A stretch of DNA of 62,692 nt, filler included, from Rhabdomonas costata (lineage: Eukaryota), in the NCBI GenBank assembly GCA_019059605.1. It is 44 parts of 44 records of this genome, joined end to end, with 100 filler letters (N's around TTAATTAATTAA, not from the genome) between each part and the next. Parts side by side here need not be neighbours in the genome. Positions count along the whole stretch, not along the records: positions 58,510 to 59,837 come from JAHMHO010019281.1; 43 more parts are not named here. One strand, given 5' to 3'. A program made the translations under genes and the position numbers. How positions within the stretch are numbered: the first letter of the stretch is position 1; every line of letters starts with the position of its first letter. Of this stretch, positions 18,721 through 62,464 are shown piece after piece. The notes beneath the pieces were generated by a model. The model saw nothing but the letters and a program-made list of their open reading frames with translations, ran no database searches and was not told where the DNA came from.

Positions 18721-19753
18721 GATTGAGCTACTTGCACAACAAGAACATCATCCACGCGGATATTAAGGTGTTCAGTTTGTCTTCGTATTCTTGTGTGCAC
18801 GGGTTGCAGGAACAACAAAATGCAACATCATTTGCAAGGAGCTCCAGATTGCTTTGTTTTTTTGCTCCTCCTTTTCGGTGTAACGCCTCTGCTCTGCTTT
18901 CTTGGACTTGTTTCGACTTGTGAAACCCGTGGGGCTGGGTACAGGGGCAAAACATTCTGATAAGCGACCGCGGGGAGGTCAAGCTGACGGACTTCGGCGC
19001 GTGCAGCATCCAGGCCCACACCCGCAAGAGCATTGACCCAGCCTCGGCCTCCGCCGCGATGGAAGCGACCTCCTCCCTGCCAATGCCCTCTCCCCTCGCG
19101 GACATTGCAAAGAGGCCCCGGCCCTTCATGGGAACCATCTGGTGGATGGCCCCAGAAGTCTGCCGGAAAGGTCCTGCACACTTCCGCTCCCAAGTCCCAC
19201 GGCTCTCAAGCAAGGCACCTGGTTGTCTCGAGCTCGAGAACAAGCAGCTCCTTGTGCTGCATTGTCCTGGCGCTTTATATGATGAGGCGACCGTCTTGGT
19301 TGGAAGCCAAGTCATGTAGCCAAGTCATGTAATCTGAAGCAGAGTAACACTGTGTCTCACTGCGTTGGACGAGCAGGTTCTTCGCACTACCATAGCGCTA
19401 GTGGTCGGAAGGGGGATGATGGCTCCAACATTTTGGTTTGTTGCAACTTGTCAGCCTGCCTCTTGCATCGTGTGCACCTTGCCTCCCTTCTCCCTCCCTT
19501 CGCTTCCTCTATTTAACGCTGTTTATGCTTCGTGTGGCATTGCACAGCGGAACCCACGAAGGCGGGCGATATCTGGGCCCTGGGGTGCGTGGTCATCGAG
19601 ATGCTCACGGGGAAGCCCCCGTGGTCAAGCATGAGTTTTGAGGTTCCCTCGGCCGCTATCCTATTCATTGGGCGCACCCGGGAGCCACCAGTGCTCGACG
19701 CGGGGTACGAGCTGGACCCGGAGACGGTGGCCTTTTTCCGAGAGTGCGTTCAG
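18721..19753 (+). CDS. STE/MAP3K (STE11-like) Ser/Thr protein kinase, 3 internal exons
   Basis: GT-AG exons 18721-18767, 18945-19170 and 19548-19753 join in phase: LSYLHNKNIIHADIK|GQNILISDRGEVKLTDFG...GTIWWMAPEV...DIWALGCVVIEMLTGKPPW. Confidence 0.93.
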
Positions 19754-20616
19754 GTTCAGGAGCCCTTTCCCATTGCTCTTTATAGCTTTGGCCAATGATG
19801 TTCTTTCCTCCCCGCCCCTCAGAAGTTGCACATTGTACTTTCTTCAGCCAACCCCAAAAATTTCAACCACTCGGGCTTTCATGTGCGNNNNNNNNNNNNN
19901 NNNNNNNNNNNNNNNNNNNNNNNNNNNNNNNTTAATTAATTAANNNNNNNNNNNNNNNNNNNNNNNNNNNNNNNNNNNNNNNNNNNNGTGGGTGTTGGGT
20001 TTCAGCAGACGGAGGGAAACAATAGAAAATACCCTGGGGGTCAGGGATTCACCTCAAAGCAGAGAGGTGAACAGCTACCAGCTACTTGCCTTTTTTGTGG
20101 TGCCTGAGGAGCATGCATTGTTTCATGCTGTCCAGCAAAGTTGTTTTTTAGAGAGTTTTGGGTAGCCGCGGCTATGGATTGGGTGGCAGTTGTTATGCCT
20201 CAGACAAGGGCTCTTTTTGCGCCAGTGTAAACTTGGTAACATTGTGGAACAGCCCCTCCGTGCCTCTGCTCCCGTAACGCTCGATTATTAAGCGGCTGCA
20301 TAATCGCTCGGGGATTCTACAATGTATTTTCCTGTACGACTTCGTCGTGGTCTAGGTTTTACCGTTTTTACAGGTGCACCTCCTGCCGCACGCCGGCGAC
20401 ACCCAAATATTTTACCGATAAGCTCGGCTTCTCGGCATTGTCCCTTGAAGATTCTCGTAACACAACCGCCCCCGGTCTTCTCTGTCGTCACCTTCTAACA
20501 TGGACACTGAGCGAAAGCTGCGCACCCTGGTGATGGCCTTTCTGTCTCTGAGTGCGCTGGTGGTTGTGTGGTAGGCTCTTCTGTGAGCTTTGAGACTTGC
20601 TCGTATTTGTCAAAAG

Positions 20617-23988: not shown

Positions 23989-26073
23989 GTATGCGTCAGT
24001 TTTTTGTGCGTGTCCTTACGGATAGTGTGTTGAGGATGGGGCGCAGGTTGGTCATGAAGGCAACTTGCTTCTTGAGGATCCTCATCTTTTTGAAGTTTTT
24101 GTCTTTTGAGTGCTTGTGTGCTTGAAGACGCTTCACGAAACTTCTGGACGGGTTGTATCCCCCACCCCCCCNNNNNNNNNNNNNNNNNNNNNNNNNNNNN
24201 NNNNNNNNNNNNNNNTTAATTAATTAANNNNNNNNNNNNNNNNNNNNNNNNNNNNNNNNNNNNNNNNNNNNGGGGTTGGGTTTTGGGACAGATTGGAACT
24301 GTCGTTGAATAGGTTGTTGCGCGTTTCTTCACGCTTTGCAAACTCTTTTTTTATTTGCTGAATGTAGTCTTCCCTTGGCGGGGTTCGCGAAAAAGCTGCG
24401 GATGACTGACACATCTGAAAAGCAGCGCGAGCTATTTGCCCTCTCGTGCCAGGTATCCAGGTGTTCTGCTACTCCTGAGTTCTTTTAAAGCAGGAAGTGA
24501 TGAGGCTTCTTTGCCGGTCCTTTTCTCCTTCAGATGCTTCAGGCTCTTCAACAGAAGCAGTTCGAGTCTGCTTATTCAATTTCGCAAGCAAGTATACCTG
24601 AGGGCCCCCTTTCGGAGCTGTTTTCGTTGTGGGATTAGTGATGCCTGTTCTAATTTTGGCACCTTTTCGGTTAAAAAACAGTTCTTGAGCTGGATCCGAC
24701 TTCATCCACAGCTGCACTCTACCAAGGGCTGCTGAAATCCAAAGCGGCAGGTTTCTGTTTGCGTTGCACGTTCCGCCCGCTTGCTGTGAGTGAAGCTTTG
24801 GCAATTCTGAGCAAATGAGTCAATTGACTTCCGAGAACTTCCGTTTCTCGAACAAATAACGTTGTTTCGATCCCCAAGTCTCGTCTCGTGCTGTAAGATG
24901 GGGTTCACTTTCCCAAGACCCCTCCTCTCTTTCTCCACTTCAGTCAACCATGGCAACTTTGGAGGACCTCCAGATGGCAAAATCCAGACTGTCCATACTG
25001 AGTAAACCAATATAAGTCAGATGCGGACCCATAAAGTGAGATGTGCGCAGTGGACGCATGGTGTGCATTTGTTACCCACCTTGCATCTGCGTAAATGAAG
25101 CAAGTAGTGCAACTGAAAAGTTACTTGAGGTTTAACGGAGGTTGCACATTTTGCTTGGTTTTTTTTACAGAGATACCTCACGAGAGCTTGGCCCAGTCAC
25201 AGGTCTGCCAATTGGGAAGTGTCTTGTTCGCAGTCTCCGGTTCCGCGGCTCTTTCTTCTTTCTCCTGCACCACGTCACAGGTGGCGGCAGCTGCTGAAAG
25301 CGACAGCGAGAGTGACGAAGACGAGCGGGATGACTCAGTAGACGACTCTGAGGTTTGAATGTGTTTGAGGTCTTCCCTTGGCTTCCGCTGTTGCGAACAA
25401 ACGTTTCTATAGCTGTATAATTATACATTTCAACCTTAAAACAGTGAATTGCCCACTGCATTTTCTCAATAAGCACCCGCCCACGAGTGGAAACCTTGGG
25501 CGGGTAAGCCAATGAGTTCGTGGCTGAAGGTCGTGGAACAGCATTGCTACGAATCGCACTGTGCCAAGTCTGGGTTTCTGGTTTGCAGGCAACCGAAAAC
25601 CCNNNNNNNNNNNNNNNNNNNNNNNNNNNNNNNNNNNNNNNNNNNNTTAATTAATTAANNNNNNNNNNNNNNNNNNNNNNNNNNNNNNNNNNNNNNNNNN
25701 NNGGGTTTCCGTGACACCAAAGAAAACCTTTTTGTAATCTTGGCGAAGGCACAATCTTTTTCTGAAATACCTTTCTTTGATGGGGCATGGGCCTGGGTTC
25801 ACCTCTGTTCGCTTTGGGCCTCACGGCGGAACTCTTATCTCCTTGGGACCCCTCCCCCCCTCCGCGACCTTGGGAACCAAGATTCAGCCAAAAAATTATA
25901 CACACACACGTGCACACACACGCATGTGCACACACTTTTGGCTTGCTTGGCGCGGCTGTCTGGTACCATCCCTTCCCTCTGTCCTACCCTCCATTCCACA
26001 AGGCGAGTGGTGAAGTGACAGGGCAAAGAGAGAGAGAAGCAGACAGACAGAAGGAGAAATGGCATATCCACAC

Positions 26074-26937
26074 CGCGTCCCACTGCAGGCAGGTCGTGCT
26101 GCCAGAGAAGCTCGCGTCCCCTAAAAGCTCCTCGTGCGAGACGTCCGGGAGGTGCCCGAAGTACTTCGCGCACCCGAAGTCCACCACCTTGATGGCGGGA
26201 TCATCCAAAGAGTCCACGGTGACCAGAACATTGTCCGGCTTGAGGTCCCGATGAGCTTGTCCCCAGGGGGGAAAGGGACGCAGCCCCCGCCCATCGTAGA
26301 CACCCCCTTCTGACGCTAGCCGTTCAAATTTCATGCCACATGCTCCCTAAAGCTATCCATCCAACGTTAGGCCTGCAGGATGTCTGAAAACGTTGGGGAC
26401 GGGCGATGGTGCTATTTCTTCAATGTCTCCTTTCATTAAAAAAACATTGTTATATTGCCCATCCCTGTTTCGACTATCATTAACGAGTGTAAACGTGTTT
26501 TTTTCTTTTCGAATTTCAGCTCATGCAGTTTGCGCCCCTATTCTTTTGTTAAGATGAGCGCTTACCACCACTCACCCAAAAAGTTTACTGGCCTTCATAC
26601 CGTCGTACAAGAAGCTGGCATGCAAAGCAATTTGGTCAACCAGGGATCAGGGGCCTCCGTCTGTGCTGTTCATAACGCTCATTACGGACACGGACACTAG
26701 AAAGGGTTCGCAGGGCAGGCAGGGGCTCCCCTCCGCCCCGACCCTACCCTTGCATGTGGACCACACAATGGAGGTACCGCAGCATCCCCAGAAGCTGCCG
26801 CACCAGCTCCCGCGCTTCGGCCTCGCGGAGGCTGCCCCGGTCTGTGATGAAGGGGATGAGCTGCCGATACCCCGCAGCAGGGCCGCAAAGTTCCAGGATG
26901 CCGTACAAGGTGCCACCATCCTCGGACCTGTGACAGC
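26074..26937 (-). CDS. CAMK-like Ser/Thr protein kinase, 2 exons joined by an apparently non-canonical intron
   Basis: Exon 26937-~26753 (LYGILELC...LREAEARELVRQLLGMLRYLH) and exon ~26256-26074 (AHRDLKPDNVLV...IKVVDFGCAK). Confidence 0.88.
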
Positions 26938-29965: not shown

Positions 29966-31292
29966 GATCTCTTTCTGCTGGGATTGTGTGTGGACTTGAG
30001 CGTGGCCCTGCATAGCTCAGTGCCGAATATTGAGGAGCTGGTAACAAGCTTCGAAGATGCCTTGTCAATGTCACTCAGTTTCTTCAGCGTTGTTGAGCTT
30101 GTCTTCTGCCAATACTGTAGACTTCTTCTCCACACTGAAGTAAAAGCACTATTTCGAAGTATGGAGGCGCTCCATTTGAGTCTCAGCCACAGCTGTGCGC
30201 TCGCTTTAGTGAGCTACCACTGCAAGACTGGCAACACCCAGGGTGCTTTCGAAGTCATCGTTCGGCAGACACCAAAGAACGAAGATCTTTGGGATGAATT
30301 GCTAGCTCCCTTCTTAGACGCTTCCTGCGAGGCCGCTTTGCCTTTCGCTGGGTTGGCCTCCAAGAATTCCAGCTTATGCCTTCGACTTCTGACTTTGATT
30401 TGCAGTAAAGGGCAGCTTCAGGTTGCCGCTGCTTGGCTTATTGCCATCATGCACAGTCAGGTATGTCCCAGCCTGTCGATGTTCTCGACGTTCCTGTTGG
30501 GCGTGCGGGAGGCACGTGAATTGGAGTTGGCGTACCACGTTTTTATTGAGTTCCAGACATGTGTCCTGAAGACGCTCATAACTCCGCTTCCGGCGATTTA
30601 CACGGCTTTTATAGCTACCTTTGTCCACAACAACGAGTATTACTCAGCTGAGCAGGTGTTTCTACAGATGCACGAAGCTCATCTTCAGCCCGAAGAGCTC
30701 GCGTGCCACATCATACTCGAAATGTACATTCGTTCTGGGAAGCATTCTAATGCATTGGTTGTGCTGAACTACCTTCATCAGCAGTCAGGGATGAGACCTG
30801 TGGCTTACTCTTTGTCAGAGCTGTTCTCTGCGATCGTTGCCAAAATTACCAGCATCGCATTGGTCTTAGCAGTCCAACGCTGCACGGTACCTGCACTGAC
30901 CCAAAGTTCAATGGTTTTCTACCAGCTGAGGACCACCACTTCGAAAAGGAAATTCTCAATCCATGGCGGTGCCTTTTCTTCTGCTAGGTGGACTCTGAAC
31001 GTCGTTAAAGCCAAGTCAAAGCCGCAGTTGTCCAGGGACTCATGCAGCCTGGCGAAGGGACTGCCCATACGCTCTGTGGGTTCCTTTTTCCAGCAGTCCG
31101 TTAGGGCGCGTGTGACACATCATTTGCTAGAATCTCGTTTTACAGTCACTGCTAAAACTTGGTCTCCCTGTGGTGCTAGCACCAGCGCACGAAATCCAGC
31201 GGCTTTCCACTGGCTGCGGACCGTAACTCCGAAAAAAGAAAAATGGTCCCTTACTGGGAAAACCTCTGCTTCTGCGAAACCTACCAGAATAT
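29966..31292 (+). CDS. Pentatricopeptide-repeat protein with a possible C-terminal SMR domain (partial, intronless here)
   Basis: Frame is open across the whole contig. ~35-aa repeats such as PLPAIYTAFIATFVHNNEYYSAEQVFLQMHEAHLQP and EELACHIILEMYIRSGKHSNALVVLNYLHQQSGMRP are followed by FSIHGGAFSSAR...SVRARVTHHL. Confidence 0.8.
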
Positions 31293-39957: not shown

Positions 39958-40152
39958 TACTGGGACCGGGCCCTGAAGTACTGAGCGAAGACGGACGACG
40001 GACTGCTCCATAGCGCCCTGGCGAACGAGATCTCCCCGTCCTGCTTCGTGATATTCCCTCTGGAGGTGATCCAAGAGACAAGTACAAGTGCTGCCTCCCA
40101 CGCGAGAACTACCGGGTCGGGCCTGAACAGCATGTGGCCCTGCGGCTTCAAG
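39958..40152 (+). pseudogene. Decayed GIY-YIG-like endonuclease fragment (possible Penelope-like element)
   Basis: LLHSALANEISPSCFVIFPLEVI, a frameshifted RENY.V and LNSMWPCGF resemble the GIY-YIG C-terminal half LH.A.....F...PLE....RE..W...LNS..P.G.N. There is an in-frame TGA at 39982. Confidence 0.5.
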
Positions 40153-40499
40153 CCGCCGTTCCGGGGCAGCCCGTCGCAGCCTGGGTGCCGAGGAAGTACC
40201 GCGTGCCAGAGCCAAACAGAGGAGAGCTAATCGACGTGGCCCTGGACCAGGTGGGACGCCAGGTCTCCACCTGGTTGAAGCAGCTCGAGACGCTCGGAGC
40301 GGACACTTTGAAGAGCCTGGGACAAGGTCAAGATCCGGGACCGGTTAAACGACGCCGCTGTGGCAAACCTGCTGAAAATCCTAACCCAAGCCCCAGGCCG
40401 CAGACGCGTAGGACTCGTTCAGCAGGGCACGCAGGTCCCAGCCCCCAACAGCCATGCGGGCAGGCTTGGGCCGCAGGCCACGCAGTCCTCCCAGTTAAG

Positions 40500-40895
40500 C
40501 TATGGCGCACGCACACTACCCTAGAAAAGCTCGTGCTCCCCAAGTCTACCACTGCGCTTTTCTTCACCAAACTGGAAATATCAAACTGTTTTTGGTCCAT
40601 TAAGGTTCCCTCTGCAGTGTGTGGCTCATTTGCATTTCAGTCCCCTGTCGGAAATCTCTCAACACGCCGCCTCCCGTTCGGTTGGTCATGGAGTCCACTT
40701 CTTGTGCACTCCACACAATTCACCCTTTCACCCCTTCACCTGCTCTTCCTCCTTTTTGGCAATACATTGACGCCAATTTGCTCGCGCACCCTGATCCACG
40801 TTCTCACATTCCACAAGCATTTTGCTGTCTTTCTGCTGGAGCAAGACGGGTTCTTACTGAACCAGAAGTGCAGTACCATTCCTGCAACTTCCATC
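40500..40895 (+). mobile_element. Degenerate reverse transcriptase of a DIRS/tyrosine-recombinase-type retrotransposon
   Basis: FFTKLEISNCFWSI...LPFGWSWSP, then after a frameshift WQYIDA (YxDD broken), then LLEQDGFLLNQKC. Confidence 0.8.
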
Positions 40896-41392
40896 AGTGA
40901 AAGACCCACATGCAAACGGCAAACAACAGAGTACTGTGTTCGTGCTGGTGCTGGTCGTCGAGTTCCTGAGCGTCAAGCCCGATGCGCTCGCGCCTGCTTA
41001 CATGGGTGTGGATTCGCTCTACCCGCCCTCCCCGAGCCTTCCCGCAAGAGACGTCACCAGGATGAGTGGACCTGGGATTCCTGGAGAGCTTGCAGCCCTC
41101 CTTCGCTGGCCGCCAGCGACGGAAGCCCGCTCTCCGCAAAGCTGTCAAGCTGTGAAGCTGTGTGAGTCCGACGCTCCCTATGTCAACGTCAACTTTAAGG
41201 ACAAGCAGAAGTTTTGGGATATGACTGGCATGATCTACAGCCAATTCGCAACCGGCAGATGGTTCGTCCCCAAGACCGTGAACAANNNNNNNNNNNNNNN
41301 NNNNNNNNNNNNNNNNNNNNNNNNNNNNNTTAATTAATTAANNNNNNNNNNNNNNNNNNNNNNNNNNNNNNNNNNNNNNNNNNNNTTTTGGT

Positions 41393-44550: not shown

Positions 44551-45883
44551 CTGTGCGTGCGCACGCGCCAGGAGGTTGTGGTGAGCTCAGAGCGCAGCTG
44601 CTTTCTTCCTTTCGGACTTCAGGCTAGATCAGTTCAAATTGGCAGGCTGACAACTTTTTCATGAACAAAAGTTGTCACCCGTTAACTCAGAAACACGTTA
44701 ACCCGTTAACTCAGAAGTACGCTGTCTTATTTTTCTGCGCAACAATAGCAAAATCTACCCTTGCGACCAGCACGACCAACCGGCCAAAATATCCTGGCAT
44801 GCGGTGGGTTGCGCCATACAATATGACTGAATGCTAAGAAAGTCTACTTTGGAAGCAAAATGAAGGTCTTTATTCACTTACGGAGTGCATTACTCGACCT
44901 TACCATCGCTGCGCAGAAAACCGACTCCAGGTTGAAATGCGACACGTACGTTTTTGGTTTCGGAGTGTAACCATCCTTAATTCGAGTTTCCCATTTTTCA
45001 ACGAAATCTGGGCAAAGCATCGATTTTACGAAAGTCTTGCGCACACTTTTACAATGACAATCGCCTAACAGCACAGTTCAGCACGTTTAATATACCAAAT
45101 ACTTGCACTGTGCCCAGGCACTGCTAAACCAATCGCATTGCACTGGAAACAGGCGTTCCGCCAGGCGTATCGCCATCCCACGGAGTCGTTCGATCCAACG
45201 GCACCTCTCGCGAGCACGGGCCAATAGCGCGTGCTCGGCACAATTGTCGCCACAGTCAATCAGGCAACAGCCAGCGCACTACGCGCCCCGAAGCAGGGCA
45301 GCGAACGCTCCAAAGGAACCGTATCCAGTTCCCGTGGCTAACAGCAGTATGCAGGTCGGTCGAGAGCAGTCACCAACAGCACCAGTCATGCAAGAAACAG
45401 CGCGGGGTTCAGCCGACACACGCACAACACACACTAGTCGAAGCTGGGAGCATCCGTACCGAGCCCTAGAAGAATCGAGCCTCGGAGGAACACGCCCCCT
45501 CATGATCACGCCTCTTAGGCCATATCGCTATTCAGTATGTCCAATGGCACCCCCTACACCCAAACCNNNNNNNNNNNNNNNNNNNNNNNNNNNNNNNNNN
45601 NNNNNNNNNNTTAATTAATTAANNNNNNNNNNNNNNNNNNNNNNNNNNNNNNNNNNNNNNNNNNNNAGAGCCTCAGTAACGAAGCGAGGTTGCGTCCTAC
45701 ACCATTGCATTGTCACACGGCAGGCGTGTTTTGATGAATGTGAAGGACCGGGGACAGGACTGATTGCACTTGTGCCCTTTCAGGTCAGGTTTCTGAATAA
45801 CACTCCCTGTGTTTGAAGTATATCCTCGCAAGCAACACATCTTCGGAGATCAGCAGAATGCTTCTTTTTCTTCGTAATCTCAG

Positions 45884-46993
45884 GGCGACAGCTGGCGCTG
45901 AAGATCAGTGCAAACTCAGTGTACGGCTTCACTGGGGCCACTGTAGGAAAACTTCCATGCCTTGAGATCTCGTCCTCCGTGACGGGCTTTGGGCGGCAGA
46001 TGATCAACCGGACAAAGGAGCTGGTGTCCACGCCCTGCCTGCCTGATTTCCTCTTTTCCCGTCCATCGATTTTTCGCACGTTTCTTTCGGGTTCCTTCGC
46101 GGTTCGTCAGCTAGGAATGAGCTGTGAGGGGCAACGAACTCAAGAATACAAGTGACTGGCATTTCTTTGCTTTCCTCCTCCAGGTACTGAGCTCAATGTG
46201 TAATATACTAATGCACACTGTCCTTCGTTGTCCACGTCGCCTTTGCTTTTGCTTTTGATGCGTTCTTGCAGAGTCGTGTGTTCTTAATATTACCCATCCC
46301 AAACAAGTGCTTAGATTTCAATTTAACCCGACATAGCGTGCGGGCTCTTATGTGACGATGACCACCCGCTGGGCTTCTGCGCCTGTTGCGCTTTTTGTTC
46401 TTCCTTCTCAATCCATTTGCGATTTTGTGACCAGGTGGAGTCGATTTACTGCCAGAAGAACGGCCATCCTCACGATGCAGTGGTAATTTACGGGGACACG
46501 GACTCTGTCATGGTCAAGTTCGGATATCCTGACTTGGCATGCAGCACGCAGCAAGCAGCACACACAAAGAGAGACACGTGAAGAGCTATGTAGCCACTGA
46601 CGAAGCCGACAGCTCCATATCAGTCTATGTGCCGTGCCCATACACACCTGACCCTATTGGCACATCACCTCCACTGTGGAGAGGAGGATGCAGTATTCAC
46701 CAGTCGTCATATTGAGTAAAATACTCAATATGAATTCGCTCTAATTCTTAGCAATCAATCTTAATTCTTAGCAATCATCCGGTATGGGTTTGTGTTTTGG
46801 GCCACTGCTGATGCATGGACTTGGAATATTTTCCTGAAACAGAGTCGCTGGATATTGGGTTGCACAGAATATAGAGTTTAAAGTACAGGGTTAAATGAAC
46901 TCTGCGAAATGCGGCATGATGTGCCCCCACCCTACGGTTCGTTGTTGTTTTCATTCTGCATGCAGGAAACCTCAATGAAGATGGGCAAGGCCG
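45884..46993 (+). CDS. POLD1: DNA polymerase delta catalytic subunit, 3 exons
   Basis: Exons 45884-46023 ([40 protein letters not shown]), 46435-46536 ([22 protein letters not shown]) and 46966-46993. The second intron is GC-AG. Confidence 0.95.
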
Positions 46994-47862: not shown

Positions 47863-50505
47863 CCAGCAAAAAGGCGGAACACCGAGGGAACGCAAACAAC
47901 ACAAGAACAACCGGGGCCCGCCAGCGCAAAGAGAGAAAAAGAAAGAGGGAAAAAATGCCAGGTGCAGCTGTTTGCAAGTCGAAAAAAGTACTCTTGGAGC
48001 TCTTCGCAAAACGAATCTGCCAGGTCATATATAGCTCAGATACCACGGAAAGGGCTGCGGCAGAGACGCTTCTATATCGCTTTAGAGGCTATGAATGGGA
48101 CAATAAGGAAAACGATTGCAACCCCCAAAGATATCGCCAAATATTCCTTTCCCCCAAAACCCAGAACTTAATGCCTCGAGACCACGCATCCGACACTTTT
48201 GGTCTTCTGTACAGGTTGATGGGAAACGCTGTGACGTAAGGAACCCGCATCGGAGTTACCGTGAATCCGTGTGCACCACCTACTTACCAAAGACAGGGCG
48301 GAGGTCTCAACGCTAACCGCTAACCAGCACCCTTTTTTTTACTGTTTCAGGAAGCAAAGGAGCACAGACTTTTGGTACACGTGGCAGCGAAAAAATGATT
48401 ACAATCAGTACAACAAAAAANNNNNNNNNNNNNNNNNNNNNNNNNNNNNNNNNNNNNNNNNNNNTTAATTAATTAANNNNNNNNNNNNNNNNNNNNNNNN
48501 NNNNNNNNNNNNNNNNNNNNGTGGTGGGTTTCGCCTGCAGGAGCACACCTTTCAGGAGGGAGGAAGGGAGGGAGGAGGTAGGGAGGGGGGTGCCGAGGCC
48601 TTGTACAGCTTTGGTGCTTTGATGGTGCGCGCTTCTGTTGTTGCCCGTGTCTAAGCCAAATTTGAACAAGCAGCTCCCGGTGACCCTTCTCGTCCGCGGC
48701 TGCTGCTTGGCTTTCTCCTGCTGACTTGTACTGCTGCTCCTTTTGCTGATGTTGGTGAGCTTTGGATACTCTGCATTCACATGGGACGGGACGAAATGCA
48801 AAAAAAAGGTGCAGAGGGGTGGTGCGGAAGTCCCTTTCTTAAAACACCATTTTGTTTCAAATTACATGTAATCTGGCGTGTCTGTTTTTGAACTGGGACA
48901 GTTTTAAATCATCGTACACTGGTCTCTTCTGAGAGCGTTTCTTCTTTCTCAAAGTCTTCCAGATGGAGTCAGACAGACCGTGTTAGGCGGCAGCGGTTTC
49001 CTTCGTGAACAATAACTCCAAACCGCGAGAATAATTGATGCAGCATTTTCCTGCCTCTTTTGCAGCTTAAACACTGTTGTTTGTTTGTTTTGCATTTATG
49101 GAAATCGCATGAACTCCGCTACTTCGCCGCATAAAGGTGTGTGTGTGTGTGTCCAATGCCAACACCCATGCACAGCGCGTTTTACCTGTGTACGCATGGG
49201 CCCCTCTCTCTTTCTCTCGGTTGTTCACCGCCTCGGCGCCTTGTTCTTATTTCGCTACCAATTGTACGGTGTTGTTAAGTTGGTGAGACGTTCCTGTTGT
49301 TTGCATTAACTCATGCCTCTTGGCGGCATACAAGTGGGAGCTAGGAGATTGCAGCTTTTCCCCGTTCAGTTCAAGTTCATTGTTCAGCTTGGTGATAAGC
49401 GATTAAGGTTTCCAAACAGGTGTAGTGTGTGGGTGTGAGTTCAACCTGATCAGGCCTGACAGTATAGAGCGTGGTCTGAATGCCGCGTGCTGTTGCCTGT
49501 GGATCTGATGCTCAGCCTGAAAATTGCGAAACCCGATAATTGGCTTTCTTCTTCGCCAGCTTCCTTTATGATTGCTTGGCAACTAAAACTGACTTTGCAG
49601 GTCTTGTGCACATTACCTATTTGCAGGTTCACAACCCGACCGGTGCAATCCCAAAGGGCTTCATGATGGAAAGGAGGTGCGAGGCCGGGGCCCAGTCTCC
49701 TGGAGTCACGGCAAGTCTGCCCGCGTCTCTGTGATTTCCTCCTCCTCTTCCTGCTCGGTGTCGCCAGATCCCACTGTTGGGACTTCAAGAAGGCACCATG
49801 CTGCGGACGAATCACTCCCACTTTCTCGCGGTAAACACCACCCCCACNNNNNNNNNNNNNNNNNNNNNNNNNNNNNNNNNNNNNNNNNNNNTTAATTAAT
49901 TAANNNNNNNNNNNNNNNNNNNNNNNNNNNNNNNNNNNNNNNNNNNNTTGTGGTGTTTGCTGCAAGAACGATAATGGGACAATGCCCTTCTCATAGCCCA
50001 AGAGTTTGACAGCACCCAACCTCCTCTCCTCTAACCTTTAGAGGACACCCCCATTGCCCAGTGCTGTCCTTGTTAATTTTACCGTTTCTTCGTTTCTGTG
50101 TTTTACCCCTGCAGGTCCCAGCTGCTCTCTTCTTCATTTTCGATCGGCGTTCGTGCGTCCCTTCCCGCAAGTCGAATCACCTCTTCTTCTTCTGCGTGCT
50201 AGAATCCCCTCTCCCGGTTCACCACCTTCCTTGTTGCATTGTACGTAATTCAGCTCCTTTGGCTATTGATAGTTATCCATATCCAGGCCTGGATTGATTG
50301 GTCGACACAATTTGGGAACACGGGCGTGAAAGCCTATTTACCCTGAGTTAAGCAACATTTTGCTGCAGTTTGCAGCTAGAATGCTGTTGCGAGGTTCCGT
50401 ATCCTTCACAGCACTATTCAAAACAACCCCCAACAACGTCCATACCTCCCCCCAGCACTTGCCGGTTTCCCAACTCTTTCTGTGTTGTTCCACTCGCGCC
50501 CTGCA

Positions 50506-51274
50506 ATGCGCACCCTTCCGCTTTGGATATGCTTCGCCGTCGCCGTGCTGGCCTTCACCGGGGCCTTTACGGGGAGCCTGTGGAGCACCCTGAACCAGGC
50601 CGCGGTGTCCTCAGTGGACGAGCTTTCTGGGGTTTTCCGAACTGCTGTGATGCGGGACCTGGAGCACCGGCTGCTGAGCGTGCTGGACGGGATGCTGTTG
50701 ATGCTGAAGGACTGGCGTGCGTTTCCTGGGGTGGAGAACAGCACGGTGGACGATGTGTACCTGTTTACGTACCACGTGATGCGCGACACGCCTGCAGTTG
50801 CGGGAATGTTCTTCAGTCGTCCGGACGGCGAGGCGATGGGCTCGACTGCGTTGCCATCAGGAGGCATCGGTGTGGGCAGCCGGCCCGCTGCTGCATTGGG
50901 CGTTCGTCTTAACATGACTTCTTACAAATACAACGGGACCATGGGAAGTGCGTACCTCACCACCACAGGTTATGACGCCAGAGTGCGACCGTGGTACGTT
51001 TCAGCGGTGGAGGCAGGTCGCCCCGTGTTTACGTATCTGTACAACTCCGCCGTCACGACAATTGAAATGATCGCCCTGTCTACGGCGGTGTACAACTCCA
51101 GTAATGGTGTGGCTGCGGTGTTAGGCCTTGCGTGTCCATTTGCGCTGCTCACCAGTGAGCTTTCCGCGGCGCACCGGGACTTGCGAAGCTCCGGGATAAT
51201 GCTTCTTGTTGAGCAGCAGAGCGGAATGGCGATCGCAGCGACCTCAGCTAACCCTTCCTCCCTAAATGCGGACG
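50506..51274 (+). CDS. Membrane receptor with an N-terminal TM helix and a dCache_1 sensor domain (partial)
   Basis: TM helix WICFAVAVLAFTGAFTG, then MFFSRPDG, GYDARVRPWYVSAVEAGRPVFTYLY and STAVYNSSNGVAAVLG. Intronless over 256 codons. Confidence 0.88.
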
Positions 51275-52476: not shown

Positions 52477-54509
52477 TCGGTTCCGGCGATTGTTGTGTTT
52501 ACGAGGGGGTTATCTTGAAACAGAGCTCCATAGCGCCTGCGCTGCCTCATCACCTTGTTCAGTCCAACACTGCAGTTGTTTTTGTCGATATTGGGTCTGT
52601 CATAAAGCCAGCTGTGGTTCGACCAACGTTCAACAAAACTCCCAGCTCACTCCTACACAGCCTCGCTTAGACGCATTTAAGAAATTTCCTGCAAAAAAAC
52701 ANNNNNNNNNNNNNNNNNNNNNNNNNNNNNNNNNNNNNNNNNNNNTTAATTAATTAANNNNNNNNNNNNNNNNNNNNNNNNNNNNNNNNNNNNNNNNNNN
52801 NGGAAGCCGCAAGTCTCGCGCCAAAGCGCGGGCATCGAGAAAAGATCAAAGCCCACCACGGGGAGAACACACACAGAAGACGGAAAGACGAATCACTCCG
52901 GCACCTCATATGAATGCCCATCCGGCCGAAGCAGGTTTTCAGAGGGGCCGGAGAGACTGTTGCGCAACGCCCGGGAGCGCGTCCGGTGGAAGAACGCTGC
53001 CTGACTTTTTTTTCCACCTTTATGCTGCAACACCTTCGGTGTAATTCTTGTCTATTATTATTTGCTACCTTCGTGCGCATTGAGAGACTGAGAGAGTGGA
53101 TCTCTCAGTGCGCATCGTCACCGACATGATGATACCAATTCGATCATTATCAGCAGCCACAGCCTGAGATTATTAACGGGTGCAATCCATCTCAAAATTC
53201 GAAGAAAGCGAGCAATCACCTCAACAGCAACCAGCCAAAAAAGTTGAGGGACCGCATCGTGCGCGTCACTCTCCAAGACGGCAAAATTAACGGCAGGGAA
53301 GTGAAAACCAAACGAAAAGGAAAGAGGGAAGGCGAGGGGAGAGCCACCAGAAAGAATGCGGTGGAGGGAGGAGGGGTTGTCTCTGGTACGGCGCGGAGCC
53401 GCTTTTAGCGTAACGCCCCGCCGCGCACGGACAAAGCATGCAACAGCTACACAATTTTGACTCCAATTTCCTTTTTCACAATCCATGCAGAGAGGGCAGC
53501 GACAACGAGGACCACAAACAGTGCTTGGGAGAGCTCTAACTGAGGTGCTGGTAGTGGATGCCGGCAGGAGATCAGCGAAAGAGAGAAAAGGGAGGGGAGG
53601 TCACTGGACGTCAGTCCCCCAAAGAAGGAACTTGGAGAAGAGAGAATGCACGAGGGTAGAGCCCAATGAACGCATGAAAAGTGGAATCAAGCAAGGGCAG
53701 GACCTCGGTATCAAGAACATCTCAACCCTCCCTCCCTGCCTCCCTCCACAGGAGACCAGCACATGCTAAGGATGATAAAAGGACGTCGCATATACACACT
53801 CACAAACTCAATGGCGCGCGAAGTTGGAGAAGCAGTCCAGTCACCGCTGGGCGCGTGTACCCGCACCTCGCCGATGTGGGTGTCCGGTCAGGATTCTTTC
53901 GAATTCCAATATCGGTGCTTCGCAAAGACTCCGCAGTGGATCCCCAGCACACGAGGGGGCACATAGCCAGGGGAACCTCCTGAACAATGGCGGAATCATG
54001 GCTTGCCTCCTCGCGGTCTTGTTCGGAGAAGGACCCATGAACTCTATCTCAAACAGAGGCAGTGAGAGGAACAGAATGGAGATGAATGGGCACCCACACG
54101 CGGCCAACACAAGCACGATCCCACAACCNNNNNNNNNNNNNNNNNNNNNNNNNNNNNNNNNNNNNNNNNNNNTTAATTAATTAANNNNNNNNNNNNNNNN
54201 NNNNNNNNNNNNNNNNNNNNNNNNNNNNGGTTTTGGTGCGTCCGTCAGGAAAGTGGAGGTATTGAGTTGTGTGGGGTGACTGGTGGGTAGACTGGGCGGA
54301 TTTAACCCGCTTCCGCCCAAGTTAGCGGTGGGCACTTCTTCATTCCTGAGAGAGCCACCTTGCACCTGACGTGTGCTAGAGTCCTTTCTTGGCAGCCGCG
54401 GGTCCCTGTGCATGTGTCCGTCCTTTTTGTCTGGAGTGTGGGCGTTGTTCAGAATGCTAGTTTCGAGGGGTCGGGGTTTTCTTCTGAATACGGCGGTGTT
54501 GGTTTTCAG

Positions 54510-55082
54510 ATAAGGACGCTTAAGGAGGAAGGCAACAAGGCCTACCAGGCTGGGGACTACTCCACGGCGATTGCGCGGTACTCCAAGGCGCTCGAGCTGG
54601 ATCCCACACACCACGTTCTGCTGTGCAACCGCTCGGCGGGCAACCACAAACTGAAGGATTATGTGAATGCCCTGAAGGTGGATTCCTTTTGCCGAGGCCC
54701 TTGAATCCCCAGCTTGCGGTGCCTTCGGTGCTTCCCGTTCTTGAATTGTGGCCCAATACACAGTTCGCATGTTTCACGAAAGTTGTCAGACAACGGAACA
54801 AAGGGGCTAACCTAATGCTATCAGTACCAGTGGTGGCCTGCGCTGCGCGTTGTGCATGTGCACCAAATTTCGTTGGCTTTTGGGGAAGTATGTGCATGCT
54901 TGTAGGACGCTGAGCAGTGCGTGAAGCTGAAGTCCGACTATGCGAAGGGGTACTCACAAAAGGCGGCCGCACTGCTGAAGCTCGGGAAGAGGCAAGAGGC
55001 CATGCAGACGTACCGCATGGGCCTGAGTGTGGACCCAAACTGTGACTCAATGAAGTCTGCGCTCCAGAGACTCGAAGCTGGG
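54510..55082 (+). CDS. STI1/HOP TPR1-like co-chaperone domain, 2 exons
   Basis: Exons 54510-54677 and 54906-55082 give LKEEGNKAYQAGDYSTAIARYSKALELDPTHHVLLCNRSA..|DAEQCVKLKSDYAKGYSQKAAAL...GLSVDPN. Confidence 0.88.
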
Positions 55083-55796
55083 GTGCGCCCTTGCCACCTC
55101 TCTTCTTTCACCTCCTACCTGAAAAAGGATGTCTGGGGGCGTGCAGACATAAAGAACTACTGTCGCATTTTGCAGCATGTACAAGAGGGGAGTTTGAAAT
55201 TTTTGCCGACCCCCCCCCCCACACACACAAAGCAGGCGCAGACCAGCGGCGCGGTGGCCGAAGCGGGGTGGTGGTGGGGATTGATGCGTACTTGTGTCCG
55301 AACCATTTTTTGTTAGATTTCCATCATAACCATTGCTGCTTGTTGCCAAAAGAGTTTGTTAAGCGTTGCAAAACGTTGCAACCCCCCCCCCACACACACA
55401 CACAAGCGTTCTGTCCATCGGGGTTTCATTGGGTCTCAAAATGTGAGCCTGTCGTGTCTGTCGCCGTTAATGTGGTGCTTGAAGCTCTTGTGCGTTTGTC
55501 AGCAGAGCGCCATGCTGACCATATGCCACCCTCCAGCAAGTTCCTGCTGTTAAATNNNNNNNNNNNNNNNNNNNNNNNNNNNNNNNNNNNNNNNNNNNNT
55601 TAATTAATTAANNNNNNNNNNNNNNNNNNNNNNNNNNNNNNNNNNNNNNNNNNNNTGTGGTGGGTGTGGGTGGGTTTTTGGGTCAAAAAATAAAAATTTT
55701 TAGTATCATCATTAAGATATTAAAAATATATTTTTATACAGTTAGTTCAAATTTTATTTATTTCCATTGATCCAATAAAATTTTTAATAAGTCATT

Positions 55797-55827
55797 AAAT
55801 TTTTATTAAATATTTTAATAAAAATTT
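55797..55827 (-). terminator. Perfect AT-only palindrome (14-bp stem, 3-nt loop) abutting the stop codon; Mimivirus-type 3'-end hairpin candidate
   Basis: AAATTTTTATTAAA-TAT-TTTAATAAAAATTT lies immediately 3' of the TGA at 55830-55828. Confidence 0.6.
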
Positions 55828-56670
55828 TCAACATAAACATCTTGACCACAACATTTTATCATATTGTATTTTTGAACCATTTGATAAATATATCGTAAAA
55901 CCTAAATCATGTATTTTTTTGAATCGTTTTTTTATTTTATTTTTATATATAAAACAATCATCAAAAACACCATCAACATAAATTTTATTACAACATGCTG
56001 TTATTTTACAAGGATATAAACAAGTTGTTTTTTTCTCATGAATATTTTTTATAATTTCTGCACTATTTTTTAGTGAATAAAATGATACAACATGAACTGA
56101 ATTATTTTTTATACAATTGTAGATCAACGAATTACAACAAAAATCACATATGTTATTATGATGATTAAATTTAAAATCAATTTGTGTATAACAATATTTT
56201 ATTTTTACAATACAACGTATTATAAAAGTTGCATATGATCCGTTTTTTGTTATACTTATCCATTTTGGTTTAAATAAATTTTTTAAATATAATTCTATAA
56301 ATAACAATACATTGTTATTTGATTTATTTTTTACTAAATCTTTGTAAAATGTCTGTAATATACTATCTTGAGGAATAATCACATCAATATCATTAGGTAT
56401 TTTTTTCAATATTTTATCTCTCCAAAAACCACCGAAAATTTTAAAGTTATTATCTAGTAATAATGTTTCACAGATTTTCAATTCATTTAATTTATCTCTT
56501 CTTTGTTGTTTTGAAAGTAAATTCATAAACAATGCACTTTTTACAGATACACCAAAAACATACACATAAAATTTTGAATTTGTTTGAGTTAATGTTAAAA
56601 GTGAACGAACATCCAAATATTCAATTATTTCACCGACTAATTCATAAACCAATAAAAGTAAATTAACCAT
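55828..56670 (-). CDS. F-box + class II nucleotidyltransferase-fold protein (giant-virus-like), 280 aa
   Basis: F-box-like LLLLVYELVGEIIEYLDVRSLLTLTQTNSKFY, then IFGGFWRDKILKKIPNDIDV (GG..RD..DxD) and DFCCNSL (cf. DFTINAL). Intronless and very AT-rich. Confidence 0.8.
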   Translation of the reverse strand: MVNLLLLVYELVGEIIEYLDVRSLLTLTQTNSKFYVYVFGVSVKSALFMNLLSKQQRRDKLNELKICETLLLDNNFKIFGGFWRDKILKKIPNDIDVIIPQDSILQTFYKDLVKNKSNNNVLLFIELYLKNLFKPKWISITKNGSYATFIIRCIVKIKYCYTQIDFKFNHHNNICDFCCNSLIYNCIKNNSVHVVSFYSLKNSAEIIKNIHEKKTTCLYPCKITACCNKIYVDGVFDDCFIYKNKIKKRFKKIHDLGFTIYLSNGSKIQYDKMLWSRCLC

Positions 56671-56767
56671 TTAATGTATCAATATATGTAAATTCTTTTT
56701 ATCATTTATTGATGTATATCAATAATTAAATTTAATTATACAAGGAAAAATATCTTATTGTTTATAT

Positions 56768-56982
56768 ATGATTGAATGTGATAAATTTTATGCTTTTAGT
56801 GATATTGAAGGTTCTTTTGTATTTCGTGATATAGATACTAATGATAAAGTACGTGTTCTCGACAGATTATCTAGTATAGAAAAAAAATCTCCACCTAAAA
56901 TATTTAGTAATCATGGATTTGATAAATTATTAGAATTAAGTGATCTATCACATATTGGTGTTGAGTTAAGTTCTGAACTAAA
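56768..56982 (+). CDS. Divergent AT-rich ORF, possible metallophosphoesterase N-terminus (partial)
   Basis: MIECDKFYAFSDIEG resembles the first SD(I/L)(H/E)G motif. The ORF is truncated by the contig end. Confidence 0.5.
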
Positions 56983-58509: not shown

Positions 58510-59837
58510 ACATAGACGTCATGGTGTACTGGAAGGACCCGGAGCTGGTGGATTTTCAGGAAATTCTGGATGCCACTGGGGTAAACCTGCTGAAAGTCAG
58601 CGGAAGTTATGTCCCGGAGCTTGTTTTCGACACGGTCATGCCCCACGTGGTATGGTATCCGACTCTGATCTTCCCAACGATCAGGCAGATCTCAAAGGTA
58701 GGGCTGTTTCTTTTCGAAGTGCGGTTTCAGGTGGTCAAAGCGCATCATCATGCGCGTGAGGGAAACCCGGGGTGGGGGGGTTGATGTTTAGGACTTTGCG
58801 GACCGATTGCGACAACAAAAGTTGAGGGGCGGAAGCCCGCCAGCCCGCGGCAGGTCAGGAGCGGACGGATGAGGCGAAGACGTGCCATTGGGGGGGGGGG
58901 ACGGCTTGCGTAAGTGTTGCTTTTTGTTGTATAAAGGTGTTAAACGTTTGACCCCGTTAAACACCAAAATCTTTTCGGTTATTGTTTTTCAAAAAGTTAT
59001 TTTCCGAGCACTGGGTTTTGGTGAAGTGTGCCTGTACTTACTCGATGCTTGGCCTTCAGCGTAGGCTCCAAGGGCAAAAAGAGACGCGGTGTTCCTCAAG
59101 CTGCTCCGTCTAACCAACCGTCCACACTGGCACAATGCTGCCTGCACTGTACAGCCGGCTCGACTTGTGGTGCCCTCAAGGGTCCAGAGCCTTTGGTTAG
59201 CCGAGAGAAAAATGAGGCCTTCAGTGGAACGCCCAATATATTCCTTTGATTCAACTTAAAGCAAGGTCGATGTGGCAGCCCCTCTTTCACGTGTTGGGAA
59301 TAGAGGGCACAACCCCGGGAGGTATACTGTGAAAGTGATGGACTTGCTTTGGTTCCTCATGCCCTAGTTTCGGTTCGAGCCGTCACTTTACTTATGCCCC
59401 CCCCCAAAAAAAGAACCATTTTCGGTGGAAAAAACACTCCTAATAATGAAGCTACGGTACCGCATGCATGTTGATTGGACGTGATACATAAACAAATGGC
59501 AGGTCCATGAAAACACCCCGAGGCTCGAAATTGTAAACCCGCTCCACTTCCTCTTCCCGACCCTGGCCCCTGGAAAGAAACACACGTACCCTTTCTTCTG
59601 CTGCTGCAACACCTTAGGCGGACGAGACCACAGCCGGAGTGAACGAATTCGTTCGGCTCACTCTATTTCTTCCCTCTGCGCTGGAGCCGGCAGACCATGT
59701 TTTCACTTTGTACCGTCACGTCGTTGGTACAACCTCGTGCGCGATGGACTTCCACCGCTTCCCCTTCGACACCCAAAACTGCGCCGTCCCTGTGGTGGTG
59801 TGGGAAAAAGGCCTCCCCGTCAGCTCCACCACCACCC
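58510..59837 (+). CDS. Pentameric ligand-gated ion channel extracellular domain with a Cys-loop, 2 exons (partial)
   Basis: Exon 58510-58697 (VYWKDPEL..VWYPTLIFP) and exon 59618-59837 (..GTTSCAMDFHRFPFDTQNCAVP) join through a phase-0 GT-AG intron. C-x13-C lies at 59738-59782. Confidence 0.9.
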
Positions 59838-61386: not shown

Positions 61387-62464
61387 ACCAAGGTTTTGGT
61401 GGAGACTCTGCCTTGCCCGACCCTGCACCGGTGTTTCCACATTCTTTGGGTGCCTCCTCGAGCACGGCTGGTGCGGTGTGCCAGGTACATGGCCTCGGCG
61501 GACTACGGGGTGCTTCCCATATCCAGCCGCGCAGAAGTGGAGAGGTTGAGACCTCAGCTGCAAGTAGGGCTTGCTCTCGGGCTGTCCGGCCTCCTGGTCG
61601 TTCCTGTAGGGGATCTCGCTGCAGGTCTGCAGGTTTCTCGGTTTGCTGTCATTCATTGAGTCACTGTTGCAGAGCAATTGCTGCTTTTGGTTCGGTGTGT
61701 GTGTTGGCATATCACCGGCATTTTGCACACACACACACACACACACACCTCCCCTCGTTAGTCATGCATCTATTATTCAAGAAGACTCATCCCGACCATC
61801 GCCTGATCCAAAATGCGTTGGTCGCGACATCCGTAGCGTGCCATCCCCCCCCCTCCCAGGCCACAGACCGGGATGCTATCCCCTTACGCGGTTTCGGTCA
61901 CTTTCGCTTTGTAGAGACGGAGGGCGGTTTTGATGGAGACGAGTTTTGCGCGGCTCTGGGCGAGGGCTGGCGCGTGGTCAAGGTTGGGACTGTTGGGAGC
62001 TGGTTGGCGCCCGATATGCTGAGAGAGTTTCCCGCGGTACCGCTATGTAGTGAGCCACCAGCTCGGTTTGCTATTCTGCGAACGGGAATCGCTTACAGCG
62101 GAGGCGGTATTCAGGTGCGAAAGCGAGGGAAGCGTAATGAAGAAAAAGCCCGCATGAGTCCAAACAAGCGGGAAAGCACCTGTGCAGTGGAGCGTATCGC
62201 TTTTTCTAGTTTTGCGGGTTCTTTTTGTTTTTAGTGTGTGATGAGATCTTCTTTCCCAGTTCCTACGAGAGCTGCTTTTCATATGACCTATCCAAATGAC
62301 AACTTTTAAAGCTTGCATCAGCATCCCGCATGTAGCATTAAGGACAACACCTCAAATACTCTTCCATGCTGGCACACAGCTTGTGGGTCGGCTGTGGTCA
62401 GGGCAGTTGCGCGCCGGCGATCTAGTTCTTGCTGCACCCTCGACATCAGACACACCGGTCACAG
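61387..62464 (+). CDS. Divergent EF1A/HBS1/eRF3-family protein with degenerate GTPase motifs, 3 exons
   Basis: Exons ~61387-61632, 61860-62114 and 62380-62464. EPPARFAI...GGGIQ|LVGRLWSGQLRAGDLVLAAP matches EF-Tu domain II. MASADYGVL and GLALGLSGLLVV align with ASQADCAVL and AYTLGVKQLIV. Confidence 0.65.

What the first reader, a model, noticed from the sequence alone, without database searches (positions are those of the whole stretch)
58510..59837. True Cys-loop receptor (C-x13-C) in an intron-containing protist gene
Seen: two in-phase exons give WKDPEL, WYPTLIF and CAMDFHRFPFDTQNC, with exact 13-residue Cys spacing around the FPFD proline motif. Known: the disulfide Cys-loop typifies animal nAChR/GABA-A/GlyR/5-HT3 channels, while prokaryotic (GLIC, ELIC) and most reported protist pLGICs are Cys-less Pro-loop receptors. 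Inference: this protist has a neurotransmitter-receptor-like channel with unusual insertions (~25 aa after WKDP). That could mean a chemosensory ion-channel system and an earlier or convergent origin of the Cys pair.
Basis: partly seen in the sequence, partly recalled or inferred. Interest (0 to 1): 0.85.

Follow-up and report, generated by a model that had tools for sequence, protein, structure and literature searches.

The report
Cys-loop ion-channel gene fragment, two exons
A short contig holds two exons of the outer, ligand-binding part of a Cys-loop receptor channel from an unidentified, probably non-animal eukaryote; such channels in single-celled eukaryotes were already described in 2016, so this is a further example, not a new kind.

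Summary
Contig 58510-59837 is one of 44 unlinked ~1.33-kb contigs in the window. It carries two phase-0 exons (58512-58697 and 59618-59836, GT..AG intron of 920 bp). They encode strand beta2, loop A, the C-x13-C loop with FPFD, and the loop-B Trp of a pentameric ligand-gated channel. Exon 2 passes Pfam Neur_chan_LBD narrowly (27.2 bits, cut-off 26). Exon 1 is recognised only through two unnamed environmental relatives, which align collinearly across the splice junction. One relative (P0011, 422 aa) is a complete subunit with four membrane helices and a PAR start to M2. Its best solved matches are glycine and GABA-A receptors. The group shares two extracellular insertions (about +15 and +12 residues in the window). 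A non-animal origin is likely but unproven. Jaiteh et al. 2016 already reported true Cys-loop receptors in four protist species and proposed a unicellular origin of the cysteines. Verdict: a real, new member of a known kind, of modest interest.

The parts
58510..59837 (+). Whole contig (1328 bp, GC 0.529), bounded by N/TTAATTAATTAA spacers. It is the only DNA linked to the finding.
   Evidence: 44 pieces of 1307-1331 bp; trinucleotide distance to the centroid ranks 22nd of 44.
58512..58697 (+). Exon 1, partial (62 codons, cut by the contig start): strand beta2, an extended linker and loop A.
   Evidence: P0001; tblastn of P0018 residues 92-169 onto 58512-58718, E 7.5e-5, 30% identity. Alone it has no Pfam or PDB hit.
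58530..58547 (+). WKDPEL, the beta2 Trp motif.
   Evidence: It aligns with WQDP / WRDA of P0018 and P0011.
58548..58652 (+). Linker between the beta2 Trp and the loop-A Trp, about 15 residues longer than in the animal hits.
   Evidence: Trp-to-Trp distance is 41 here, 38 in P0011 and 47 in P0018, against mostly 25-26 in the animal domains.
58653..58673 (+). WYPTLIF, the loop-A region (W-x-P).
   Evidence: WYPA in P0018, WFPN in P0011.
58698..59617 (+). Intron of 920 bp, GT..AG, phase 0, GC 0.515.
   Evidence: splice sites, stops in all frames; intron-free relatives align straight across the junction.
59618..59836 (+). Exon 2, partial (73 codons, cut by the contig end): second insertion, beta5-beta6, Cys loop, start of beta7 / loop B.
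   Evidence: P0002. Neur_chan_LBD 27.2 bits. P0011 matches residues 2-68 at 38% identity. A TAG at 59615-59617 bars an earlier start in this frame.
59738..59782 (+). Cys loop: C, 13 residues including FPFD, then C.
   Evidence: It aligns to the 5-HT3A Cys loop.
59801..59803 (+). Trp seven residues after the second Cys. It aligns with the Trp that follows the Cys loop in 5-HT3A (the loop-B position; that naming is recalled).
   Evidence: alignment (query ...cavpvvvw against ...csltftsw).

Best explanation
The contig carries the middle of a spliced eukaryotic gene for one subunit of a pentameric ligand-gated ion channel of the Cys-loop type. Shown: two phase-0 exons encode beta2, loop A, beta5-beta6, the C-x13-C loop with the invariant FPxD tip, and an aromatic residue at the loop-B position. 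Shown: the gene belongs to a small divergent group whose only detectable close relatives are unnamed environmental sequences with the same two extracellular insertions. Inferred from the full-length relative P0011: the complete protein has a signal peptide, four membrane helices, a pre-M1 Arg and an M2 that starts with PAR. On that basis it would assemble as a pentamer and pass anions when a still unknown small ligand (or pH) binds between the extracellular domains, with the Cys loop pushing on the M2-M3 linker. Inferred: the source is the bulk genome of the assembly, an intron-rich eukaryote that is probably not an animal.
For: Pfam Neur_chan_LBD on exon 2 scores 27.2 bits against cut-off 26, E 3.1e-6. 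The loop motif is unique in the window, against 0.02 per shuffle. phmmer of exon 2 against 1.84 billion representatives gave 15 hits at E<=1e-3. Only P0011 and P0016 cover nearly the whole exon (residues 2-68 and 6-59, 38-39% identity). Both exons align collinearly to P0018 and P0011. P0011 passes both Neur_chan_LBD (31.8 bits, cut-off 26) and Neur_chan_memb (30.1, cut-off 28.1). All 60 listed best solved matches of P0011 are glycine or GABA-A receptors or chimeras containing them, the best being GlyR alpha-2 at E 9e-15; its PAR-VGLSIT aligns to PAR-VALGIT. A profile of the extracellular domain only (window exons plus the P0018 cluster) hit 38 solved sequences at E<=0.01, all anion-type: a pH-gated chloride channel and GABA-A subunits. 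Exon GC3 is 0.70 against intron GC 0.515, and both frames are intact. The contig's composition is typical of the assembly, 22nd of 44.
Against: Exon 1 alone finds nothing in Pfam or PDB. The Pfam score of exon 2 is only 1.2 bits above the cut-off. Exon 2 alone is closest to cation-selective 5-HT3A (E 8.9e-4), not to an anionic receptor. No membrane domain, pre-M1 Arg or M2 lies on the contig or elsewhere in the window. The anion-type inference therefore rests on relatives only 38-39% identical. The ECD-only profile is dominated by the P0018 cluster (4 of 6 rows). P0018-type proteins stop about 10 residues into M1. Expression and splicing are unverified. The structure model of P0011 was unusable, mean pLDDT 38.9. 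The organism is unidentified.
Confidence: 0.75

Rival explanations
1. The gene is an animal Cys-loop receptor. Either the assembly is from an animal or this contig is animal contamination of a protist assembly.
For: 9 of the 15 hits are named animal proteins: nematode, bivalves, a snail and fishes. The nearest ESM-Atlas clusters to relative P0011 are animal-dominated. Metagenome locus L001, an animal-like anionic LGIC with introns, has the same loop start CAMDFHRFP. The assembly holds at least one foreign-looking contig, GC 0.209, so mixed sources are possible. A 920-bp intron is ordinary for animals.
Against: The 9 named animal hits match only the Cys-loop neighbourhood, with best stretches lying within query residues 26-63. 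No hit reaches E 1e-10 despite dense animal sampling. The only near-full-exon relatives are unnamed environmental sequences that share two insertions. These are absent from the animal domains measured: loop A to Cys1 is 53-55 residues against 41-46 in 19 animal domains. The contig's composition sits at the median of the assembly. Other contigs carry an N-terminally anchored dCache_1 exon and a 442-codon PPR frame, which are more typical of non-animals. Those Pfam scores are weak and this typing is my inference.
Confidence: 0.17
2. It is a decaying or truncated copy: a pseudogene, or a soluble AChBP-like extracellular domain with no channel part.
For: No membrane domain is on the contig. The eight P0016-cluster proteins all end shortly after the pre-M1 Arg. 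Jaiteh et al. describe frequent loss of pLGICs in unicellular lineages (abstract).
Against: Both exons are open. Every family-defining residue visible is intact. GC3 is raised over the intron. The closest full-length relative has all four helices. The truncation of P0016-type predictions is equally explained by an intron that ends the called ORF.
Confidence: 0.07
3. It is a chance motif in non-coding DNA.
For: Exon 1 alone is not recognised by any library.
Against: Searches give independent significant matches for both exons, collinear with homologues.
Confidence: 0.01

Closest known systems
Protist Cys-loop receptors, anionic-type clade (Jaiteh, Taly and Henin 2016, PMC4795631)
   Same: It comes from a eukaryote that is probably not an animal and has a bona fide C-x13-C loop with FPxD. 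The relative P0011 carries the three-residue anion signature (PAR) that the paper uses to define the clade.
   Different: None of those published proteins appeared among the 15 hits, so this sequence is not close to them at exon level. Its nearest relatives are unnamed environmental sequences. The group has two extra extracellular segments. I could not see the paper's Fig 1, its tree or its supplements, so I could not check which four species it means or whether any has such insertions.
Animal glycine, GABA-A and pH-gated chloride channels (anion-selective Cys-loop receptors)
   Same: These are the best solved matches of relative P0011 (E 9e-15) and of the family's ECD-only profile. They share the Cys loop, the PAR start of M2 and an M2-M3 Tyr that aligns in P0011.
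   Different: Identity is low. Animal proteins matched exon 2 of the window only around the Cys loop. The two insertions are absent from the animal domains measured. The M3-M4 loop is very short in P0011.
5-HT3A receptor (cation-selective Cys-loop receptor)
   Same: It is the best solved match of exon 2 alone (E 8.9e-4). The Cys loop and the following Trp align.
   Different: The match covers 31 residues only. The full-length relative and the ECD profile favour anion-type receptors.
Prokaryotic pLGICs (GLIC, ELIC) and Cys-less protist Pro-loop receptors
   Same: They belong to the same superfamily and share the FPxD proline loop (Jaiteh section 7).
   Different: They lack the two cysteines, which this sequence has. 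No prokaryotic chain was among the listed best solved matches, apart from a GLIC-GlyR chimera.

Membership tests
Pentameric ligand-gated ion channel superfamily (Pro-loop receptors) | Match to the Neur_chan_LBD profile (PF02931) at or above Pfam's gathering score. | tested here: met
   Exon 2 scores 27.2 bits against 26, E 3.1e-6, residues 27-59 to profile positions 113-144. The margin is narrow. Exon 1 alone has no hit.
Pentameric ligand-gated ion channel superfamily (Pro-loop receptors) | [F/Y]PxD at the tip of the beta6-beta7 loop, with the invariant Pro (Jaiteh Table 1). | tested here: met
   FPFD lies inside the loop at 59738-59782.
Pentameric ligand-gated ion channel superfamily (Pro-loop receptors) | Four membrane helices M1-M4 (PF02932) after the extracellular domain, with a pre-M1 Arg. 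| not testable with these tools
   The contig ends 18 codons after the second Cys. There is no other pLGIC piece in the window and no genome is held. The feature is present in relative P0011 (30.1 bits against 28.1).
Pentameric ligand-gated ion channel superfamily (Pro-loop receptors) | Assembly as a pentamer that forms a gated pore. | not tested
   This needs the full protein. The model of relative P0011 failed (pLDDT 38.9).
Cys-loop receptors (sensu stricto) | Two cysteines 13 residues apart flanking the beta6-beta7 loop. | tested here: met
   C, 13 residues, C. The same spacing is seen in P0011 and P0018.
Cys-loop receptors (sensu stricto) | The two cysteines form a disulfide. | not testable with these tools
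   There is no usable structure model.
Anionic-type Cys-loop clade | Three-residue anion signature at the start of M2 (P-A-R type). | not testable with these tools
   M2 is not on the contig. PAR is present in relative P0011 and aligns to that of GlyR alpha-2. The ECD-only profile hits only anion-type solved receptors, 38 of 38, but exon 2 alone prefers 5-HT3A.
Protist (non-metazoan) pLGIC | The gene belongs to the genome of a non-animal eukaryote. | tested here: inconclusive
   Composition is typical of the assembly. No animal hit extends beyond the Cys loop. The relatives are unnamed environmental sequences. A pol delta exon of the assembly is closest (92%) to an unnamed environmental protein, which is itself only about 55% identical to animal proteins. 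No marker gene identifies the organism.

The most novel reading that the evidence does not exclude
The window sequence, P0011 and the P0016 cluster may represent an undescribed lineage of anion-type Cys-loop receptors in uncultured or poorly sampled microbial eukaryotes. The lineage would be marked by two extracellular insertions: one between beta2 and loop A, and one between loop A and beta6. If it branches outside all animal clades, it adds an independent witness that the Cys pair and the anion/cation split predate animals. It would also offer a compact subunit (422 aa, very short M3-M4 loop) for functional and structural work.
Probability: 0.4. Interest if true: 0.45.

Novelty: new member of a known kind. 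Interest (0 to 1): 0.3.

Why it matters
It would add one more non-animal lineage to the short list of unicellular eukaryotes with true Cys-loop receptors. Jaiteh et al. 2016 counted four species. It would also point to a divergent subgroup known otherwise only from environmental sequence. No biological role is known for any unicellular pLGIC (Jaiteh section 14, passage seen), so a compact, probably anion-selective member could be a test case. The fragment itself cannot show a channel.

Tried and rejected
**Closed or unavailable routes**
- Own genome: none is held.

**Searches that found nothing useful**
- Word-based homologue searches found nothing for exon 2 among longer proteins (59 candidates, none at E<=0.01). 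For P0011 they found only itself.
- Rfam: 0 matches in the window.
- The single-protein scan with exon 2 gave 2 loci out of 412 pattern matches. L001 is an animal-like anionic LGIC that shares only the loop. L002 is a spurious match in a bacterial contig, lying in a frame that overlaps a gene called on the opposite strand.
- IMG/VR scans with P0011 and with the AT-rich contig's ORF found no relatives.

**Uninformative results**
- AlphaFold2 of P0011 with a 5-row alignment gave mean pLDDT 38.9 and pTM 0.26, so no fold search was run.
- The ESM Atlas only re-confirmed the family.
- Organism identification through a pol delta exon failed. Named hits were 68-83% identical and mostly vertebrates by database weight. 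The best hit was an unnamed environmental protein at 92%.
- No telomere-type repeat is in the window.

**Readings rejected**
- An alternative acceptor at 59686/59687 was rejected, because residues encoded by 59618-59686 align to both relatives.
- Two of the 15 hits (P0003, P0012) are repeat proteins and were set aside as spurious.
- A phylogeny was not attempted. Only 135 residues are available, and no animal anionic or bacterial sequences could be brought in as stored proteins.

Full report
**What the window is.** The 62,692-base window is not one stretch of genome. It is 44 separate pieces of 1307-1331 bp joined by spacers of N with TTAATTAATTAA. The finding's interval, 58510-59837, is exactly one such contig (1328 bp, GC 0.529). 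Nothing to its left or right in the window is linked to it. Everything about this gene therefore has to come from these 1328 bases and from homologues.

**The observation.**
- The + strand gives an open frame from the contig start to 58697. It holds WKDPEL (58530-58547) and WYPTLIF (58653-58673).
- A second open frame runs from 59618 to the contig end. It holds CAMDFHRFPFDTQNC at 59738-59782.
- The first frame ends at a canonical donor, AAG|GTAGGG.
- The second begins directly after a TAG whose AG closes a pyrimidine-rich tract, CCTTAG|G. Both junctions are phase 0.
- The 920 bases between them carry 9, 7 and 15 stops in the three frames, with GC 0.515. The exons have GC 0.558 and GC3 0.70.
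- The loop pattern C-x6-[FY]P-x-[DE]-x3-C occurs once in all six frames of the window, against 0.02 per window in 200 shuffles.

**Is it a pLGIC?**
- Exon 2 (P0002, 73 aa) matches Pfam Neur_chan_LBD at 27.2 bits, E 3.1e-6. That is just over the curated cut-off of 26, across residues 27-59.
- Against solved structures its best match is 5-HT3A (E 8.9e-4). The Cys loop aligns, as does a Trp seven residues after the second Cys.
- Exon 1 (P0001, 62 aa) alone finds nothing in Pfam or PDB, even at E 10.
- phmmer of exon 2 against 1.84 billion representative proteins gave 15 hits at E<=1e-3 and none at 1e-10.
- Nine of the 15 are named animal proteins (a nematode, bivalves, a snail, fishes). Their best stretches lie within query residues 26-63, around the Cys loop.
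- Two are repeat proteins that I set aside (P0003, P0012).
- Two are other unnamed environmental predictions (P0015, P0017).
- Two cover nearly the whole exon: P0011 (422 aa, residues 2-68, 38% identity) and P0016 (residues 6-59, 39%).
- Both come from environmental assemblies without names. P0011 is a singleton on a 1639-bp contig. P0016 stands for a cluster of 8 on contigs of 1.3-2.6 kb.

**Gene structure confirmed by the relatives.**
- tblastn of P0018 (the 294-aa member of the P0016 cluster) against the window hits exon 1 (58512-58718, E 7.5e-5, 30%) and exon 2 (59633-59794, E 9e-9, 39%). The hits fall in order, at adjacent positions of the protein.
- P0011 hits 59618-59821 (E 2.6e-9).
- No other contig scores better than E 0.48.
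- In the multiple alignment the junction ...ISK | ADETT... lies against continuous sequence in both relatives. No exon is therefore missing between the two.
- The acceptor at 59617/59618 is preferred over a later AG at 59686, because the 23 residues in between are homologous to the relatives.

**What the full protein probably looks like.**
- P0011 passes both Pfam domains: Neur_chan_LBD at 31.8 bits against 26, and Neur_chan_memb at 30.1 against 28.1.
- It has an N-terminal hydrophobic leader, a C-x13-C loop, three helices, a very short M3-M4 link and a fourth helix.
- All 60 of its listed best solved matches are glycine or GABA-A receptors, or constructs containing them. The best is GlyR alpha-2 at E 9e-15. 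P0011's PAR-VGLSIT aligns to the receptor's PAR-VALGIT at the start of M2, and a Tyr aligns in the M2-M3 linker.
- A profile made only from extracellular sequence (the two window exons and four members of the P0016 cluster) hit 38 solved sequences at E<=0.01. All are of the anion-selective kind: a pH-gated chloride channel and GABA-A delta, beta, pi and rho subunits.
- I therefore read the group as anionic-type Cys-loop receptors.
- Three cautions apply. Exon 2 alone is nearest to 5-HT3A. That profile is dominated by one cluster. The window's own M2 is unseen.

**The insertions.**
- I measured distances between fixed landmarks.
- From the beta2 Trp to the loop-A Trp there are 41 residues in the window, 38 in P0011 and 47 in P0018. 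In the animal domains found the distance is mostly 25-26. The heuristic gave 19-32 over 17 domains, with some mis-anchored.
- From the loop-A Trp to the first Cys there are 55, 53 and 53 residues, against 41-46 in 19 animal domains.
- The group thus has two extra segments, about +15 and +12 in the window, rather than one of about 25.
- Their position in the fold could not be modelled. AlphaFold2 on P0011 with the 5-row alignment gave mean pLDDT 38.9.

**Protist or animal?** This could not be settled.

In favour of a non-animal host:
- The contig's trinucleotide composition sits at the median of the assembly, 22nd of 44 by distance to the centroid.
- No animal protein matches beyond the Cys loop, in a library where animal pLGICs are densely sampled.
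- The only close relatives are environmental.
- Other contigs carry an exon with an N-terminal anchor followed by dCache_1 (31.6 bits, below the cut-off of 45) and a 442-codon open frame with PPR repeats. That these suggest a non-animal is my inference.
- A DNA polymerase delta exon of the assembly (73 bits) is 92% identical to an unnamed environmental protein. That protein is itself only about 55% identical to animal orthologues.

Against a non-animal host:
- None of this is a marker-gene placement.
- One contig (55656-56982, GC 0.209) is clearly from another source, so the assembly is mixed.
- An animal-like anionic LGIC in a metagenome contig (L001) has the same nine-residue start of the loop.

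I put the non-animal reading at roughly 0.75-0.8.

**Comparison with what is known.**
- I read the abstract and sections 5, 7 and 9 of Jaiteh, Taly and Henin 2016 (PMC4795631), plus further passages by search. The figures and supplements were not available.
- They report pLGICs in 22 protist genera. [quoted passage not shown]
- They also report that protist Cys-loop receptors fall into the anionic and cationic clades. [quoted passage not shown] - Passages of a 2024 diatom survey (PMC11085791) and of a 2026 preprint (PMC13232294) show that protist pLGICs of both inferred selectivities are now routinely included in comparative sets.
- Three literature searches listed no paper whose title or abstract reports functional characterisation of a protist Cys-loop receptor. 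That is a listing-level statement only.
What may be new is this particular divergent subgroup with its insertions. None of the published protist receptors surfaced among the hits. Without the paper's tree and supplements I cannot exclude that a member is already in their set.

**Verdict.** This is a genuine two-exon fragment of a Cys-loop pLGIC gene. It most likely encodes an anion-type subunit of a non-animal eukaryote. It is a new member of a known kind. The missing membrane domain, the unverified expression and the unidentified host keep the interest modest.

Noticed in passing
window 1-62692: The window is a chain of 44 unrelated contigs of 1307-1331 bp joined by N/TTAATTAATTAA spacers. 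Any reading that links neighbouring features across a spacer is invalid.
   Followed up: yes
window 55656-56982: This contig is a compositional outlier: GC 0.209 and trinucleotide distance 0.22, against 0.02-0.06 for 42 of the others. It holds a complete 280-aa ORF (55831-56670, minus strand) with a weak F-box-like N-terminus (16.9 bits, below the cut-off) and a second open frame running off the contig end. The ORF is not in the 15-billion-protein collection and has no IMG/VR relative. It is probably a second DNA source, such as a virus, a symbiont or a contaminant.
   Followed up: partly
window 8564-9891: This is the second most atypical contig (GC 0.42, distance 0.094). It was not examined further.
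   Followed up: no
window 50380-51273 (+): An open frame begins with Met and a hydrophobic anchor, followed by a dCache_1-like sensor domain (31.6 bits, below the cut-off of 45) with an MCP-like PDC hit. It looks like a bacterial-style extracellular sensor in a eukaryotic genome.
   Followed up: partly
window 29966-31291 (+): A 442-codon frame is open across the whole contig, with PPR repeat hits at about the cut-off.
   Followed up: partly
window 45817-46152 and 46327-46578 (+): These are two exons of a family-B DNA polymerase (73 and 27.8 bits); relatives of the first exon are named DNA polymerase delta catalytic subunit. The best relative of the first exon is an unnamed environmental protein at 92% identity.
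   Followed up: partly
window 40014-41162 (+): A long open frame has a weak reverse-transcriptase match (RVT_1, 20.7 bits, below the cut-off of 29.6). It is probably a retroelement remnant.
   Followed up: partly
window 54306-54701 and 54906-55313 (+); 18924-19316, 19517-19795 (+); 25987-26346 (-): These are exons with TPR repeats and protein-kinase exons. They are ordinary eukaryotic genes split by introns.
   Followed up: partly
L001 2316-3968: A metagenome contig of 4577 bp carries at least three exons of an animal-like anionic Cys-loop receptor (Cys loop, M1, M2-M3). Its loop starts with the same nine residues as the window's.
   Followed up: partly
window 6924-6993, 61726-61748 and others: (AC)n microsatellites and AC-rich short repeats recur in several contigs. 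There is no telomere-type repeat.
   Followed up: no
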